Assembly: GCA_963662405.2 (NCBI GenBank)
Contig: CAXXKT010000001.1
Span: 1,984,001-2,048,000, forward strand
From: Syntrophales bacterium
Lineage (GTDB): Bacteria > Desulfobacterota > Syntrophia > Syntrophales > UBA2210
Direction of reading: 5' to 3'
DNA length: 64,000 nucleotides
How positions within the stretch are numbered: the first letter of the stretch is position 1; each line of letters starts with the position of its first letter. Below are positions 27,001 to 39,000 of the stretch, piece by piece. The position numbers were made by a program.

Positions 27001-30000
27001 CGACAACAGTGTAATATCCTATAACGGGCTGGTCCTCTGGGGTTTTCTCGCCTTTACGCTCTGCCAGATATCGGGAGCCGTCTGGGCATATCTCGGGTGG
27101 TCATACCCGTTTTCATGGAGTCCACGGCATTTGACCAGCGCTTCCCTCTGGTGCCTGTATGCCGCTCTTATCCATGCCCATTTCACGGGGATACAGGAAC
27201 GGCTGAAGGCGATCCTGACCGCTTTTGGTATCATTCCAATCACATATATGGTCTATCATCATGAGATAGTCACACTCCTGCAGGTGGTATCGGCGAGGTT
27301 CACATGAACCGGTTCATTCGATTTCTGACCCGTATGGAAACAGGTTTTTTCCTGTTGATCGTTGCGTCGGCACTGTTATTGACGGGGGGCATTATAGCCG
27401 ACGTGCATGACACGTCGCTCAGGGCATTAAATTTTCTCACCTTTCAGAAATGGTTTCCAAAACACTCCATGAGACCCCTCCTGTATGTGTGGATATTGCT
27501 GCTTTTCGGCATTTTTTTTCTTCTTGCCGTCAACACGTTTCTCTGCACGGTTTCCTATGTGAGAAACATGTCGAGGAAGGGACTGTCGGCGAGGAGATGG
27601 GGGATTGTTCTGTTCCATTGCTGCTTTTTGATGTTTCTCTCGGGACATTTTCTGTATGGATTTACGGGAATCTGTGAAAAAGTGATGGTTGAAGAAGATA
27701 TCCCCTGCACGATCCCTGCCCTCGGTCTGTCCCTTGTCCCCTTCGCGGTTGAAAAGGGTGTCCTGTCCGTTTACGGGCAAGAAGTCCCCGCGGCGGTAAA
27801 GGCGGGGATCACGGTGTCGGATGAAAGGGGCGGGGAGACGACAATACATCCGGCAACGCTGAGACCGAAGCGCGCATTGGGATACACCGTTCATATCTCC
27901 ATGAAAGATAAAGCCCTTTCTCATTCGCAGGTCGGCATCATCGTGCGCAAGCAATACGGTCTCGACCTTTTGATTGGAGGGGGGATCACCATGCTGATGG
28001 CCATGGCGCTCTTCCTGCCGAGCGTGTTTCGTTCCCGTGGCCGTTAGTCTTTGCCGTCCGCCGTTATGGCCTGGATCATCGGAAGAGCGCATTCTGTTTT
28101 GAGCCGTGATTCACTTCGCAATGTCGTTGACCATCATACCGGAACATGGTAAAAACCACGAATATGGAGAAAGAACTTCTCACCACGAAAGAACTGGCGG
28201 GTTTTCTGCGGTTCAACGAGAAGAAGATCTACCAACTCGTCAGAGACAGTGGTATCCCCCATGTCAAGATTGCCGGGAAGTGGTTGTTCCCCCGGCGGCA
28301 TGTCCTTCGCTGGATAGACGAACAGGTGCAGAGGGAGAAGGATGTCCTGATTGTCGGGAGCGACGATGCCCTCATGACGAGGCTCGTTTCCCTCTATTCT
28401 CAGGAAAATTTCCCCGAGTCCCAGGCCTTCTACTCGTCCGTGGGAAGCCTGAAGGGAATCCAGTCTCTGATGCGGATGAAGGGGCAGGCCTGCTGCACCC
28501 ATATCCTGGATATCGAGACAGGCGTGTATAACCTTCCCATCCTCGAGAGGATGCTTTCACCTCAGAGATATGTGGTCATTCACCTCTGGTGCCGGGAGCA
28601 GGGACTGATCGTGGCGAAGGGGAACCCCCTCGGGATAAAGACACTCGAAGATATTGCGGAAAAAGGGGCGCGATTCATCAATCGGAATGTCGGTTCAGGG
28701 ACGCGGGTCCTCATCGACTATCTGATGAAAGAAAGAGGACTCGACGGACGAGAGATTACCGGTTTTACTACTGAACAAGACAGCCACATCGGGGTGGCGC
28801 AGAGGGTCTTCTTCGGAGAGGCCGATGTCGGTGTGGGAATCGAGTATGTGACGCACCTCCTCGGTCTTGACTTTATCCCCCTCAGGGAAGAGAACTTCGA
28901 TCTTGTCATCCCCGAGGCGCTCTGGTCCACGGTCCCCATCAAACGCTTTGTCTCCTATCTGGACCCCGCACGGATCAAGGGACTCTCTGCAAATCTGCCG
29001 GGGTACAACCTGAAAGATACGGGAAAGCTGGCCTTCCAAAATTGATCCTCGAAGGGATCGAGTGAAAAAAAAGTTGCTTTCTCCTGTCGATTGGATTAGC
29101 ATCCCTCCGAATCTGGGAGGTGAGTAAGGTCATGATGACGATTGTACGGTACGATTCTTACTGGTGGTGGCAAAACAACATAGGGAGTCGTCCGTCCGCA
29201 GGCTGATGCCAGCAACAACCGGAAACCGAAGGCCGTGGGCAGGCAGTGCTCGCGGCCTTTTTTTATGGTGAATCAAGATACTGTGAAGGAGCATACGATG
29301 GATCAGACATTCATGCCGAAGATCAAGGCAGAGAAAGAACTTCAGGCACTCCAGCTTGAGGGGCTCAAATGGACCGTTGCCCATGCCTATCAGGGGTCGG
29401 ATTTCTATCGCCGACGGTTCGATGAGGCGGGGGTGAAACCGGAGGACATCCGAACCCTCGATGACCTGCGCAGGCTCCCCTTGGTCACCGCCCAGGACCT
29501 TCAGGAGCAGTACCCGTGGCCCCTCCGATCGGTTCCCTTCGATCAGATCGTTCGCCTCCACGCCTCCTCGGGGACGACGGGGAAGCGGAAGGTGATGATC
29601 TACACGGCGCGCGACATCGACGACTGGGCAAACATGTTTGCCCGCTGCTACGAGATCGCCGGCCTGACGCGGGAGGACCGGATTCAGATCTGTGTCGGGT
29701 ACGGAGTCTGGACCGCCGGTGTCGGTTTCCAGCTTGGGTGTGAGCGGTTCGGTGCCCTCGCCGTCCCTGCCGGACCGGGGAATATGGAGATGCAGATGCA
29801 GTTCCTCGAGGACTTCCAGCCCACCGTCATCTGCGCGACGGCATCCATGGGGCTCCTGATGGCCGAGGAGGTCGAGAAGAGGGGATTGAAAGACAAGATC
29901 AACGTCAAGAAGGTGATATTCGGGGCGGAACGTTCCAACGACGCCATGCGGGAGACCATCAAGGGCCTGCTCGGCGCGGAGCAGACCTTCGACATCCCGG

Positions 30001-36000: not shown

Positions 36001-39000
36001 ATCACCTACCTGCCGGGCCTGGTTCGGTAGGGGCTTCCGTCTACAAATTGTAGAAAATTCTGTCCACATGGAAGAACAACTCCCATTTTCTCATTTTGCT
36101 ATCGAATATCGTATAAACGATCCAATTTCATATTCTTAGTGATTCAACTTTTGGATGCCAGAGGTATGAAAACGCCGTGTGGCAGGGAGAAGATCTTCTA
36201 CGTAACGAAACATGACTTGACGTATTGTAGATGTTGCCTTAAAATGTGTCATCTACTAAATCGAAGGTATTCGTGAGGTGTGCTATGTTGACAGAAAAAA
36301 CATTGAATCAAATCTTGGGAGTGCTTGAACTAACATCCAAATATTGTGAAACGGGCCTTCCTCTCCAAAAAGCTTATCAAAAATCTGTAAAAAATATCGC
36401 TCACAAATATTCAGTGAGATATCAGACCATTGCCGATGGCTGCCGCAGGAGATTGAATCTGGATAATATTAATGAATTTATCAGTCTATTGGATGAATGG
36501 TTAGGAGGTAACCCCAGTAATTTGAAAAGATTGCTTTTAAAGAATGTTGGTAATCTTGAGGAGTATAAAATTGAAAACTTTTTTGACCATATCAGAACTT
36601 CATCTCAAGAAGCACTAATTGAAAGAAAAGTAGAAAATTCATTTGAGGTAATTACTTTCAAAACTACAAGAGATGTGGCCAGTAAACTACGCTCATTAGC
36701 TGATGCAGAAGGTGAAAACATCCAAGATTATATGAATGTAATTATAAAAAACCACGTAGACAAACATTATGTTGAATATTTGAAGCAACTGATTAACGCT
36801 TTGCCTCATGAGCATAGAGAAAAAGTCATGGCAGAGTTGGCTAAGGGCTTGGAGTAAGTTTATAAATTGTTATAGATGACCACTAGTGTCCGGAATAATT
36901 ACCTCTAGTCACGAATAACATATTGTTAATATTTGTTAATAATTGAAAAATGACTGTCCTCGACTTGAAAATTGCCCGTTATGCCTGCCATACTTTCCCA
37001 ACAACTTCTCTGGGAAAGGATTCTTATGTACACAGGCCCGCTCGTCTTCGCCCAAGTCATGAACTTCATGCCTCTGAAGCACTTCCAACGATGTATAGAG
37101 AAGTATCAGGGCAATTTCAGTGTCAAAAGTTTCTCATGCCTCGATCAGTTTCGAGTCATGGCCTTCGCTCAGTTGACCTATCGCGAGAGTCTTCGGGATA
37201 TCGAGGCATGCCTTCGATCCCAGAGCAAGAAGCTTTACCACATGGGCATACGGGGCAAGGTATCCAGGAGCACGCTTGCCGAGGCGAACGAAAACCGCGA
37301 TTGGCGTATGTACGCCGACTTCGCTCATCATCTGATCGATATCGCTCGGAATCTGTATCTGGACGAGCCAACCGTTCTCGATCTCAATCAGACAGTCTAT
37401 GCACTGGATGCTACAACTATCGATTTGTGCCTGTCCCTGTTTCCATGGGCACTCTTCCGACAGCACAAAGGTGCGGTCAGGCTTCACACATTGCTGGACC
37501 TGCGGGGTCATATCCCGACCTTCATCTACATCTCCGACGGCAAGCTCCACGAGGTCAACGTGTTGGACATCGTCCCCTTGGAACCGGGTGCCTTTTATAT
37601 CATGGACCGTGGATATACCGACTTTCTCAGACTCTACGCGATAACACAGGCATCGGCTTACTTGGTCATTCGAGCAAAATCCAATCTGAACTTTCGCAGA
37701 GTGTACTCCCACGCAGTAGATCGAAGTACCGGTTTGATATGCGATCAAACCATACGACTATCAGGCTATTACGCATCCAGAGACTACCCGGAAAAGCTGC
37801 GCCGCATAAAGTATCGCGACAAAGAGACCGGCAAAACTTTGGTGTTTCTGACCAACAACTTTACGCTTCCTGCCCTTGTCATTGCGAAGCTTTACAAACA
37901 GAGATGGCAGATAGAGCTCTTCTTCAAATGGATCAAACAGAACCTGCGCATCAAGCGTTTTTACGGAACCTCGGAGAATGCCGTCAAAGTGCGAATATGG
38001 ATTGCCGTATCCGTATACCTGCTTGTAGCTATTATTCGAAAGAAGCTCAATATCCAGGCCAGTCTCTACACAATTTTACAGATCTTGAGCGTGTCTATTT
38101 TTGAAAGAACTATGCTAAATCAACTACTTGGATTCTATGACTACACAACAGAAACAACAGAAAACAATAACCAACTGAATTTATTTACAGATTATCCCGG
38201 ACACTAGTGATAGATGACAATCTTTCATGTTTGCATTTGCTAGGATGCTATTACTAAGTTCGGTGTTATCTATAAAAAGGAGAAATGTATGGAATATATG
38301 TTTACAGATTGGGATGGCCGGAGCTATAAAAGGAAAACAAAAGACAATATTTCAATTGCAGCGGAATATATTTCACCGGGAAAGATAGATGTGTCTTTGA
38401 AGCAAGAATCTGGGAAAAGCTTTCTTCGGTTAATTCTTGCAAGAAAAGAAGCGGCAGCTATTATCAGTTCGCTAAATGCAGCGGGTTCTGAATGCAAGCT
38501 TTGTATTATTTCGACATCATAACCAAAGTAATTTGACGACGCTCTACTATTTTCTCAAGAACAAGGCGAATTTTTACGCTATCGCCGTATTCTCTAGCTC
38601 TTTTCCTAAAGAATAGGGAAATATCTTGCTCACTTCCTAAGAGACGGTTGGTTGCTACATCTTTTTGAGAGGGCTCATGGGAAACACAAAAGAAGAAACA
38701 TCATGGATCGAAAAAGCGGGAGAGGATCTCTTCAACTTTGCTGTTGATCGCGAGGACTTAAAGTCGGTTATGCTGCTTCTCCCGGAGGAGGCGGACATCA
38801 AACGGGAGACGGTCGCATATGAACTCCAGGTATTGAAGTTTATCAGTACCGGATGGAGTATCCCCTATTTCCTTGAAAACTCTCCAGACAAGGACCGGCT
38901 TGCCCGGTTGTATTGGGAAACGGTGTATCAGTCTTGTCTCGGCATATCCGAGGCAACGAATATGATGATCGGTCAAAAAATAGATTATTTCGATATATTA

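What a model noticed while it worked through the whole genome (the two positions that open the first line are those of the whole stretch)
29046..36030. Trp-, Phe- and Leu-rich leader-peptide attenuators wired to aryl-acid CoA ligase, 2-oxoacid:ferredoxin oxidoreductase an [...]
Uncalled leader peptides with three consecutive Trp codons precede not only trpE and trpB2 but also a phenylacetate-CoA-ligase-like gene (g01889; leader C1:2013132-2013206) and iorAB plus a tripartite transporter (g01890-g01894; leader C1:2014663-2014737), each followed by an intrinsic terminator. A leader with six Phe in eight residues (C1:2712783-2712854, two terminators) precedes a binding-protein-dependent transporter operon with two acyl/aryl-CoA ligases (g02564-g02570), and a Leu-rich leader (C1:1294289-1294393, minus strand) precedes a ketoisovalerate-type oxidoreductase operon (g01226-g01222). 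Starvation-type control implies that these catabolic-looking oxidoreductases and ligases se [...]
Evidence so far: Leader orfs and terminators found by script. Names from the Swiss-Prot table: g01889 43% to PaaK, g01890/91 39/33% to IorA/IorB, g02570 32% to phenylacetate-CoA ligase, g01224 42% to VorA. Conservation: a leader with 2-4 consecutive Trp 150-250 nt upstream of iorA in 26 of 30 orthologous loci from at least 9 Syntrophales families, with thymidine runs and with paaK-like and dctP genes beside it; the Phe-rich leader upstream of the g02564 orthologue in at least 26 of 30 loci (30 of 30 by the loose test); a Leu-rich leader 166-230 nt upstream of the orthologue of g01226 in about 16 of 20 loci from 10 families. 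One full-text search (indolepyruvate, leader peptide, attenuat, tryptophan) gave 2 un [...]
(Added by a program. Inside this text positions count along the whole contig: contig position 1,984,001 is position 1 of the stretch shown here. "Call 12" and the like, gene names such as g00115 and contig names such as C1 are that model's own, and its searches are not shown. The text may have been shortened before it was handed on; [...] marks where a part breaks off. The agent that wrote the report below was given it as the finding of a first reader that could run no searches.)

Follow-up and report, generated by a model that had tools for sequence, protein, structure and literature searches.

The report
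Tryptophan attenuators controlling indole-acid salvage genes
Two tiny tryptophan-rich leader genes with competing RNA hairpins switch on an aryl-acid CoA ligase and an oxidoreductase-plus-transporter operon when tryptophan runs short, which suggests that these catabolic-looking enzymes rebuild tryptophan from imported indole acids.

Summary
Window 29132-29206 and 30663-30737 hold short ORFs with three consecutive Trp codons. Each has a ribosome-binding site and an intrinsic terminator. The first precedes a PaaK-family ligase, the second iorAB-dctPQM.

Genome-wide, a Trp triplet lies 40-160 nt before a strong terminator at only four sites (0.32 coincidences expected). The other two precede trpEGDCFBA and trpB2.

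The iorA leader recurs in 38 of 52 orthologous loci with upstream DNA, and moves with the operon front in a re-ordered locus. Terminator and antiterminator both show compensatory changes, including one three-way change. The ligase leader is confined to the closest relatives.

New support for the reading: the TRAP binding protein is a close homologue (E 8e-99) of Dde_0634, which was crystallised with indole-3-acetate, indole-3-pyruvate and D-Trp.

Best reading: starvation-induced uptake of indole acids, CoA activation, and reductive carboxylation to indolepyruvate for tryptophan.

There are no expression or enzyme data. The orthologue was found in only 9 of 61 sampled genomes of the order.

The out-of-window Phe and Leu leaders were also confirmed.

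This scan noted the same kind of attenuator before iorAB on other DNA (e1-5008278). Five full-text searches found no published description.

The parts
29074..29102 (+). promoter-like hexamers (TTGCTT, 17 nt, TAGCAT) before leader 1
   Evidence: Read by eye. The same arrangement (TTGATT, 17 nt, TAGCAT or TATTAA) stands before the ligase leaders of L006, L010, L033 and L015. It was not listed by the stricter scan.
29132..29206 (+). leader ORF 1, 24 codons, Trp codons at 29162-29170
29189..29205 (+). modelled antiterminator strand of attenuator 1 (3' end of the leader ORF); pairs with about 29230-29245
   Evidence: duplex -19.5 kcal/mol, but not better than shuffles (p 0.14). The same strand is significant in L010, L033 and L015.
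29228..29264 (+). intrinsic terminator 1 (14-pair stem, T7)
   Evidence: -25.8 kcal/mol
29298..30590 (+). PaaK-family aryl-acid CoA ligase (AMP-forming)
   Evidence: TIGR02155 406.8 bits, below the cut-off of 646.3. (PDB 2Y27, E 2.7e-105).
30604..30632 (+). promoter-like hexamers (TTGCTT, 17 nt, TAAAAG) before leader 2
   Evidence: Read by eye; not listed; weak.
30663..30737 (+). leader ORF 2, 24 codons, Trp codons at 30693-30701
   Evidence: conserved
30675..30685 (+). region 1 of attenuator 2 (pairs with region 2 when no ribosome stalls)
   Evidence: 80.6% of cells paired, 4 pairs with changes on both sides
30720..30730 (+). region 2 of attenuator 2 (antiterminator strand, inside the last leader codons)
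   Evidence: core helix 95% paired; duplex z -3.5, p 0.003
30759..30795 (+). intrinsic terminator 2; its 5' arm and loop (30766-30776) are region 3
   Evidence: 97.7% paired, 3 pairs with changes on both sides
30835..32664 (+). iorA, indolepyruvate:ferredoxin oxidoreductase alpha-type subunit
   Evidence: TIGR03336 642.8 bits, cut-off 650.9
32661..33167 (+). iorB, beta/gamma-type subunit
33187..34209 (+). dctP, TRAP solute-binding protein with signal peptide, of the indole-acid-binding kind
34190..34729 (+). dctQ, TRAP small membrane subunit
34726..36030 (+). dctM, TRAP large permease

Best explanation
Two ribosome-mediated tryptophan attenuators stand in series, one before a PaaK-family aryl-acid CoA ligase and one before iorAB-dctPQM. 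When charged tRNA-Trp is plentiful, the ribosome translates the 24-codon leader through to its stop codon. There it covers region 2, so the terminator hairpin forms and transcription stops. When it is scarce, the ribosome stalls on the three Trp codons. Region 2 then stays free to pair with the 5' arm and loop of the terminator, and RNA polymerase reads into the genes. (The sequence anatomy and covariation are shown; the response to tryptophan is inferred.) The induced proteins most likely form a salvage route. The TRAP system takes up indole-3-acetate, and perhaps indole-3-pyruvate. The ligase makes indoleacetyl-CoA. The oxidoreductase runs in the reductive-carboxylation direction to give indolepyruvate. 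A housekeeping aminotransferase completes tryptophan. All of these steps are inferred from family, homology and regulation. Together with the attenuated trpEGDCFBA and trpB2 genes, this makes a four-member tryptophan-starvation regulon in this genome.
For: Anatomy: start codon with GGGAGG or GGAG, WWW, stop, then a terminator. Only 4 such sites exist in the genome against 0.32 coincidences expected. The other two are the trp operon and trpB2. Conservation: a leader with at least 2 consecutive Trp plus a terminator lies directly before iorA in 38 of 52 orthologous loci (at least 59% identity) that have upstream DNA. In L057 the operon is re-ordered to dctPQM-ligase-iorA and a WWWW leader sits before dctP. 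None of the 5 distant outgroups has a leader. In an evenly drawn sample of the order, 7 of 8 non-own orthologous loci have the leader. The same scan gave 4 other hits in all other + strand DNA of the 61 loci. Structure, on 18 sequences: terminator 97.7% paired with 3 doubly changed pairs; antiterminator core 95% paired with 2 doubly changed pairs; slid controls give 25-50%. Alignment column 121 changes together with both its antiterminator partner (column 69) and its terminator partner (column 136) in L017 and L018. Region 2 pairs with the terminator 5' arm better than shuffles at p<=0.05 in 26 of 39 loci. The trpE leader of the same genome has the same design (z -4.6). Function: DctP matches PDB 4PGN/4PGP/4NAP at E 8e-99 to 1e-98. 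[quoted passage not shown] The ligase is an AMP-forming PaaK-family enzyme below the PaaK equivalog cut-off. An aryl-acid route to aromatic amino acids through indolepyruvate oxidoreductase is on record for Methanococcus maripaludis (passage in PMC4162585 citing Porat et al.).
Against: There is no RNA, protein or enzyme evidence. For attenuator 1 in the window, the modelled antiterminator is no better than shuffles (p 0.14). By the scan, its Trp leader recurs in only 3 of 25 relatives that have DNA upstream of the ligase gene; L015 carries a single-Trp form seen by eye. 11 of the 52 orthologous loci show no leader before iorA, several of them with a fused ligase-iorA operon that has no Trp leader. 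The orthologue was found in only 9 of 61 sampled genomes of the order. SBP orthologues in other families of the phylum mostly lack a Trp leader (2 candidates in 29 loci). The solved homologue also binds indolepyruvate and D-Trp, so the transported substrate is open. If it is indolepyruvate, the oxidoreductase is not needed to make tryptophan. No aminotransferase lies in the operon. IorA scores 8 bits below the curated IorA cut-off.
Confidence: 0.62

Rival explanations
1. The attenuators are real, but the operon handles aryl acids broadly (phenylacetate, 4-hydroxyphenylacetate, indoleacetate). It would then supply all three aromatic amino acids, or serve uptake of aromatic 2-oxo acids. Tryptophan would be only the signal chosen.
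For: The family names are generic: PaaK-family ligase and IOR, which in characterised enzymes accept several arylpyruvates (general knowledge). The solved SBP homologue binds three different indole compounds.
Against: All listed ligands of the SBP homologue are indoles. The same genome has a separate Phe-rich leader before another transporter operon with two ligases, which argues for one module per amino acid.
Confidence: 0.17
2. The attenuators are real, but the pathway runs oxidatively. Imported indolepyruvate or tryptophan-derived keto acid would be decarboxylated to indoleacetyl-CoA for energy, with the ligase acting in a side role.
For: IOR is best known as a catabolic enzyme. The SBP homologue binds indolepyruvate.
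Against: Switching on tryptophan-skeleton breakdown when tryptophan is short is counter-productive. The genes share their control with trpEGDCFBA and trpB2. An AMP-forming ligase consumes ATP to activate the acid rather than conserving energy from the thioester (established enzymology of the family). TRAP systems are importers of carboxylates.
Confidence: 0.12
3. The Trp-rich small ORFs act like TnaC: free tryptophan stalls the ribosome and induces the operon, for catabolism.
For: A Trp-containing leader peptide lies before genes that look catabolic.
Against: Runs of 2-4 consecutive Trp codons whose number varies in whole codons fit starvation sensing. So do an intrinsic terminator and an antiterminator strand that lies under a ribosome halted at the stop codon. 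The same design precedes trpE in this genome.
Confidence: 0.04
4. The small ORFs are chance features beside ordinary terminators of upstream genes, or parts of small RNAs, and have no regulatory role.
For: No expression data. Rfam has no matching family.
Against: 0.32 coincidences expected against 4 sites, all before tryptophan-related genes. Conserved in 38 of 52 loci, with the reading frame kept and with covariation. The leader follows the front of the operon in L057.
Confidence: 0.03

Closest known systems
trpL leader-peptide attenuator of the enterobacterial trp operon (Rfam Trp_leader RF00513; model recalled from Yanofsky's work)
   Same: A short translated ORF with tandem Trp codons. Mutually exclusive 1:2, 2:3 and 3:4 hairpins. 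Region 2 is covered by a ribosome at the stop codon. A Rho-independent terminator lies before the first structural gene.
   Different: No sequence or structure match to RF00513. Three to four Trp codons. Region 1 lies upstream of the Trp codons. The targets are a CoA ligase and an oxidoreductase-transporter operon rather than biosynthetic trp genes. Two attenuators stand in series on adjacent units.
Aryl-acid route to aromatic amino acids through indolepyruvate oxidoreductase in Methanococcus maripaludis (Porat et al., as cited in a passage of PMC4162585)
   Same: An IorAB-type enzyme is proposed to work anabolically, from arylacetyl-CoA plus CO2 to arylpyruvate to amino acid.
   Different: Bacterial rather than archaeal. 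Here the route is coupled to a dedicated TRAP importer and a PaaK-family ligase, and is placed under an amino-acid-specific attenuator. Nothing has been tested biochemically here.
Dde_0634 TRAP solute-binding protein of Desulfovibrio alaskensis (PDB 4NAP, 4PGN, 4PGP; Vetting et al. 2015, seen only through Table S1 of PMC10443332)
   Same: Close homologue of the window's DctP (E 8e-99 over residues 18-312). Its ligands are indole-3-acetate, indole-3-pyruvate and D-Trp.
   Different: The ligand-contact residues were not compared. Orthologues outside Syntrophales mostly lack a Trp leader. The original paper was not available.
Indoleacetate-CoA ligase of the iaa operon of Aromatoleum aromaticum (term found in search listing; abstract start of PMC8360864 seen)
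   Same: A CoA ligase that activates indoleacetate under anoxic conditions.
   Different: That operon degrades auxin. The present ligase is paired with IOR and is tryptophan-starvation controlled.

Membership tests
Leader-peptide (ribosome-mediated) transcription attenuator | Short ORF with ribosome-binding site and start codon just upstream of the regulated gene | tested here: met
   24-codon ORFs with GGGAGG or GGAG 5-9 nt before the ATG
Leader-peptide (ribosome-mediated) transcription attenuator | Run of codons for the sensed amino acid | tested here: met
   WWW in both leaders; 2-4 consecutive Trp in 38 of 52 orthologous loci
Leader-peptide (ribosome-mediated) transcription attenuator | Rho-independent terminator between leader and gene | tested here: met
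   covariation
Leader-peptide (ribosome-mediated) transcription attenuator | Antiterminator that shares bases with the terminator and is masked by a ribosome at the leader stop codon | tested here: met
   For the iorA leader. For the ligase leader in the window: inconclusive (p 0.14), but met in L010, L033 and L015.
Leader-peptide (ribosome-mediated) transcription attenuator | Read-through rises when the cognate charged tRNA is scarce | not testable with these tools
   no RNA holder listed
Rfam Trp_leader RF00513 | Match to the covariance model at gathering score | tested here: not met
   no hit even at E<=10
Indolepyruvate:ferredoxin oxidoreductase IorAB | IorA equivalog model TIGR03336 at the curated cut-off, TPP and 4Fe-4S domains, adjacent IorB | tested here: inconclusive
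   642.8 bits against a cut-off of 650.9. Domains POR_N, TPP_enzyme_C and Fer4 are present. IorB models score 172 against a cut-off of 227. Substrate not testable.
Phenylacetate-CoA ligase PaaK | Equivalog model TIGR02155 at the curated cut-off | tested here: not met
   406.8 bits against 646.3. A family member, but not a PaaK equivalog; this is compatible with a different aryl acid.
TRAP transporter DctPQM | Three adjacent genes for DctP, DctQ and DctM | tested here: met
   (PF03480, PF04290, PF06808); signal peptide on DctP
Indole-acid-binding TRAP SBPs (Dde_0634 group) | Close sequence relation to the solved indole-acid complexes | tested here: met
   E 8e-99 to 4PGN/4PGP and 3.5e-108 to 4N6D; ligands. 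Binding itself is not testable.

The most novel reading that the evidence does not exclude
Syntrophales use amino-acid-specific leader-peptide attenuators as switches for a set of reverse-running 2-oxoacid:ferredoxin oxidoreductase modules. These are: Trp for iorAB-TRAP plus ligase; Phe for an ABC transporter with two ligases; Leu for a VOR-type enzyme. When an amino acid runs short, the cell would rebuild it by importing the matching fermentation acid excreted by neighbours (indoleacetate, phenylacetate, isovalerate) and reductively carboxylating it. In this genome the Trp regulon would join de novo synthesis, indole salvage by TrpB2 and indole-acid salvage under one signal. The attenuators would thus label the physiological direction of enzymes that annotation calls catabolic, and would point to acid-for-amino-acid cross-feeding in methanogenic consortia.
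Probability: 0.45. Interest if true: 0.75.

Novelty: new variant of a known kind. Interest (0 to 1): 0.62.

Why it matters
Regulation here gives a direction to enzymes whose sequence cannot. IOR and PaaK-like ligases are routinely annotated as aromatic amino-acid or phenylacetate catabolism. Tryptophan-starvation control, shared with the trp operon, argues that in these syntrophs they are an anabolic salvage route, fed by an importer of the indole-acid-binding kind. That changes metabolic models of anaerobic digesters and sediments: auxotrophy predictions, the fate of indoleacetate, and cross-feeding. It also gives a simple, testable link between a classical RNA switch and reductive carboxylation. 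Finally, it shows that leader-peptide attenuators can be mined as function labels for neighbouring genes.

Tried and rejected
- RNA evidence: no RNA holder listed.
- Rfam at gathering score and at E<=10 gave no leader family, only sub-threshold terminator-driven hits.
- The paralogous iorA genes of the genome (C1:2404324-2406189 and C2:61565-63319, about 34% identity) and the two paaK paralogues have no leader upstream. The control is therefore specific to this copy.
- A search for a Trp leader before the ligase gene in more distant relatives found none.
- A search for Trp leaders before SBP orthologues across the phylum gave only two WW candidates in 29 loci (L138, L148).
- Plain minimum-free-energy folding of the whole leader with downstream sequence was not informative, because downstream pairing dominated. 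I replaced it with duplex tests and covariation counts.
- The original paper on the solved binding protein was not held. PMC9973260 held the PDB code only outside its main text.
- Literature searches for a Trp leader before iorAB returned nothing relevant (passages of PMC4833913).
- I considered building a covariance model to map the regulon in relatives, and dropped it because only the window's own genome can be scanned as a whole.

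
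Full report
**What is there.** The window is G000:C1:1984001-2048000. Between a regulator-like gene ending at 29045 and a ligase gene starting at 29298 lies a 24-codon ORF (29132-29206). It has GGGAGG before its ATG and three consecutive Trp codons at 29162-29170. It is followed by a 14-pair hairpin and seven T (29228-29264). A second ORF of the same size (30663-30737, Trp codons 30693-30701) lies between the ligase stop (30590) and iorA (30835). A second hairpin-plus-T7 follows it (30759-30795). These are the only two + strand terminator-like sites in 28500-37000. No terminator separates the ligase gene from the second leader. None lies inside iorA-iorB-dctP-dctQ-dctM, whose genes overlap or are at most 20 nt apart. 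The layout is therefore two attenuated units in series.

**The genes.**
- The ligase is a PaaK-family AMP-forming enzyme: PF00501 with PF14535; TIGR02155 at 406.8 bits, well under its cut-off of 646.3; PDB 2Y27 at E 2.7e-105.
- IorA has the expected TPP and 4Fe-4S domains and scores 642.8 against a cut-off of 650.9 for TIGR03336. IorB follows.
- DctP (33187-34209, with a signal peptide), DctQ and DctM form a TRAP importer.

**More than chance.** The genome has 69 TGGTGGTGG sites on both strands. Sixteen lie in ORFs of 45 codons or fewer, and only four of those are followed by a terminator. With 289 strong terminators, 0.32 coincidences within 40-160 nt are expected. Six were seen at four sites, two of which have tandem terminators. 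The other two sites precede trpEGDCFBA (followed by a prephenate dehydrogenase gene) and a trpB2-type gene. Within this genome, the feature therefore marks tryptophan supply genes and these two units, and nothing else.

**Conservation of the iorA leader.**
- A scan of one genome per species gave 61 loci. Four lack upstream DNA and five are distant outgroups (29-43% identity).
- Of the remaining 52 loci (59-84% identity), 38 carry an ORF with 2-4 consecutive Trp and a terminator directly before iorA. In three of these an insertion lies between attenuator and gene.
- Three more loci carry variant forms. L019 has a W-C-W-Q-W leader with a terminator. L037 has a WWW leader 459 nt upstream. In L057 the operon is re-ordered to dctPQM-ligase-iorA, and a WWWW leader with terminator stands before dctP, that is, at the new front of the operon.
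- Eleven loci show no leader: L026, L027, L034, L035, L040, L043, L047, L048, L054, L059 and L060. In five of them the ligase gene abuts iorA, and no Trp leader precedes the ligase where DNA is available. None of the 5 outgroups has a leader.
- The same scan over all other + strand DNA of the 61 loci gave only four further hits besides two ligase leaders.
- In an evenly drawn sample of the order (61 genomes, 24 families), an orthologue at E<=1e-180 was found in 9 genomes of 7 families, own included. Seven of the 8 non-own loci have the leader. The system is thus well conserved where it is present, but patchy. The search scored only 21 candidates per genome, so some orthologues may have been missed.

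**Conservation of the ligase leader.** The scan found a Trp leader in only 3 of 25 relatives that have DNA upstream of the ligase gene: L006 (WW), L010 (WWW) and L033 (WW). In L015 I saw by eye a single-Trp form with a terminator. All four share a promoter-like TTGATT, 17 nt, TAGCAT or TATTAA with the window, and their terminators resemble the iorA terminator. This suggests a lineage-specific duplication of the attenuator (inference).

**RNA logic.**
- On an alignment of 18 iorA leaders, the terminator is 97.7% paired, with three pairs changed on both sides.
- A ten-pair antiterminator joins the last leader codons (30720-30730 in the window) to the terminator's 5' arm and loop (30766-30776). 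It is 95% paired, with two pairs changed on both sides. Partners slid by 1-3 columns give 25-48%.
- In L017 and L018, one position of the terminator's 5' arm (column 121, A to G) changes together with both its antiterminator partner (column 69, U to C) and its terminator partner (column 136, U to C). This is what two mutually exclusive helices predict.
- A region 1 upstream of the Trp codons pairs with region 2 in 80.6% of cells. Its best slid control gives 58.7%, so this helix is supported more weakly.
- Across 39 leaders, the duplex between the segment after the Trp codons and the terminator 5' arm beats 300 shuffles at p<=0.05 in 26, and z is negative in all.
- The geometry is classical. 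A ribosome halted at the Trp codons separates regions 1 and 2 and leaves region 2 free. A ribosome at the stop codon (30735-30737) covers region 2.
- The trpE leader of the same genome has the same design (z -4.6). The ligase leader's antiterminator is modelled but not significant in the window (p 0.14); it is significant in L010, L033 and L015.
- No Rfam family matches.

**What the genes do.** The most informative new result concerns DctP. It matches PDB 4N6D (E 3.5e-108) and 4PGN/4PGP/4NAP (E 8e-99 to 1e-98) over nearly its full length. Table S1 of PMC10443332 lists 4NAP, 4PGN and 4PGP as Dde_0634 of Desulfovibrio alaskensis with D-Trp, 3-indole pyruvate and 3-indole acetate as ligands. The main text of that paper notes indole-3-acetic acid among DctP-family ligands. 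I could not read the original paper. The picture is then:
- an importer of indole acids;
- an acid-activating ligase that is not a true PaaK;
- an IOR-type enzyme;
- all three under the same starvation signal as the trp operon and trpB2.

This fits uptake of indoleacetate, formation of indoleacetyl-CoA, reductive carboxylation to indolepyruvate, and transamination to tryptophan. An IOR-dependent aryl-acid route to aromatic amino acids is on record for Methanococcus maripaludis (passage of PMC4162585 citing Porat et al.). Reductive carboxylation of arylacetates in rumen bacteria is recalled, not seen. The paralogous iorA and paaK genes of this genome have no leaders.

**What remains open.** Nothing shows expression or activity; no RNA holder is listed. 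The binding protein's homologue also binds indolepyruvate, which could be transaminated directly. No aminotransferase is in the operon. Outside Syntrophales, orthologues of the binding protein (found in 68 of 301 sampled genomes of the phylum) are often next to a PaaK-like gene (8 of 29 loci). They rarely sit behind a Trp leader (2 candidates of 29).

**The out-of-window claims.**
- The Phe leader (six Phe in eight residues, two terminators) precedes a Peripla_BP_6 binding protein, ABC subunits and two AMP-binding ligases. A homologous Phe-rich leader precedes the orthologue in 29 of 30 loci, at the criterion of at least 4 Phe in 8 residues.
- The Leu-rich leader with terminator precedes POR-family gamma, alpha and beta genes. 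About 20 of 30 orthologous loci carry a recognisably homologous Leu-rich ORF with a shared C-terminal tail, judged by eye. 27 of 30 pass a loose test of at least 5 Leu in 12 residues, for which I ran no control.

**Novelty.** Full-text searches for a Trp leader or attenuator together with indolepyruvate oxidoreductase, delta-proteobacteria or reductive carboxylation found no description. Passages of a leader-peptide survey (PMC4833913) do not mention it. Earlier notes of this scan describe the same kind of attenuator before iorAB-TRAP in another genome (e1-5008278) and a Phe/Tyr analogue (e1-7080108); my tests agree with both. The mechanism is a known kind. The targets, the two attenuators in series, and the four-member regulon are a new variant.

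Noticed in passing
window 59952-60092 (+) and 58717-58789 (-): Group II intron domain D1-D4 match (RF02003, 109.9 bits) and a tRNA gene close by.
   Followed up: no
window 28146-29045 (+): HTH_17 plus PBP_like (molybdate/tungstate-binding type) regulator-like gene immediately upstream of leader 1. A 74% identical gene stands in the same place in L010. A link to the tungsten or molybdenum supply of neighbouring oxidoreductases is only a guess.
   Followed up: partly
own genome C1:784509, 2013162, 2014693, 2089109: The distance from the first Trp codon to the T run is exactly 96 nt in three of the four Trp leaders of this genome: ligase, iorA and trpE.
   Followed up: no
L011, L013, L037 (between leader and iorA): Insertions of 200-350 nt with G-rich and C-rich inverted motifs separate the attenuator from iorA. 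They may be small mobile repeats.
   Followed up: no
L006:10439-10504: In the closest relative, an aromatic-rich small ORF (Phe, Tyr, then WW) with a terminator lies just downstream of dctM. It may be another leader.
   Followed up: no
L054:9624-11717 and L043: iorAB is embedded in a Liv-type ABC transporter operon that encodes a fusion of an ABC ATPase with a PaaK-like ligase (697 aa). No Trp leader was seen there.
   Followed up: partly
L132, L138, L139, L145 (about 150-250 nt before dctP orthologues): A conserved promoter-like block (TTGACA, spacer, then a TACAGTAGA-type motif) precedes SBP orthologues in other families of the phylum. This suggests protein-based control there instead of attenuation.
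   Followed up: no
own genome C1:2712783-2712854 and C1:1294289-1294393 (-): The Phe-rich and Leu-rich leaders with terminators before a transporter-ligase operon and a VOR-type oxidoreductase operon are conserved across the order.
   Followed up: partly
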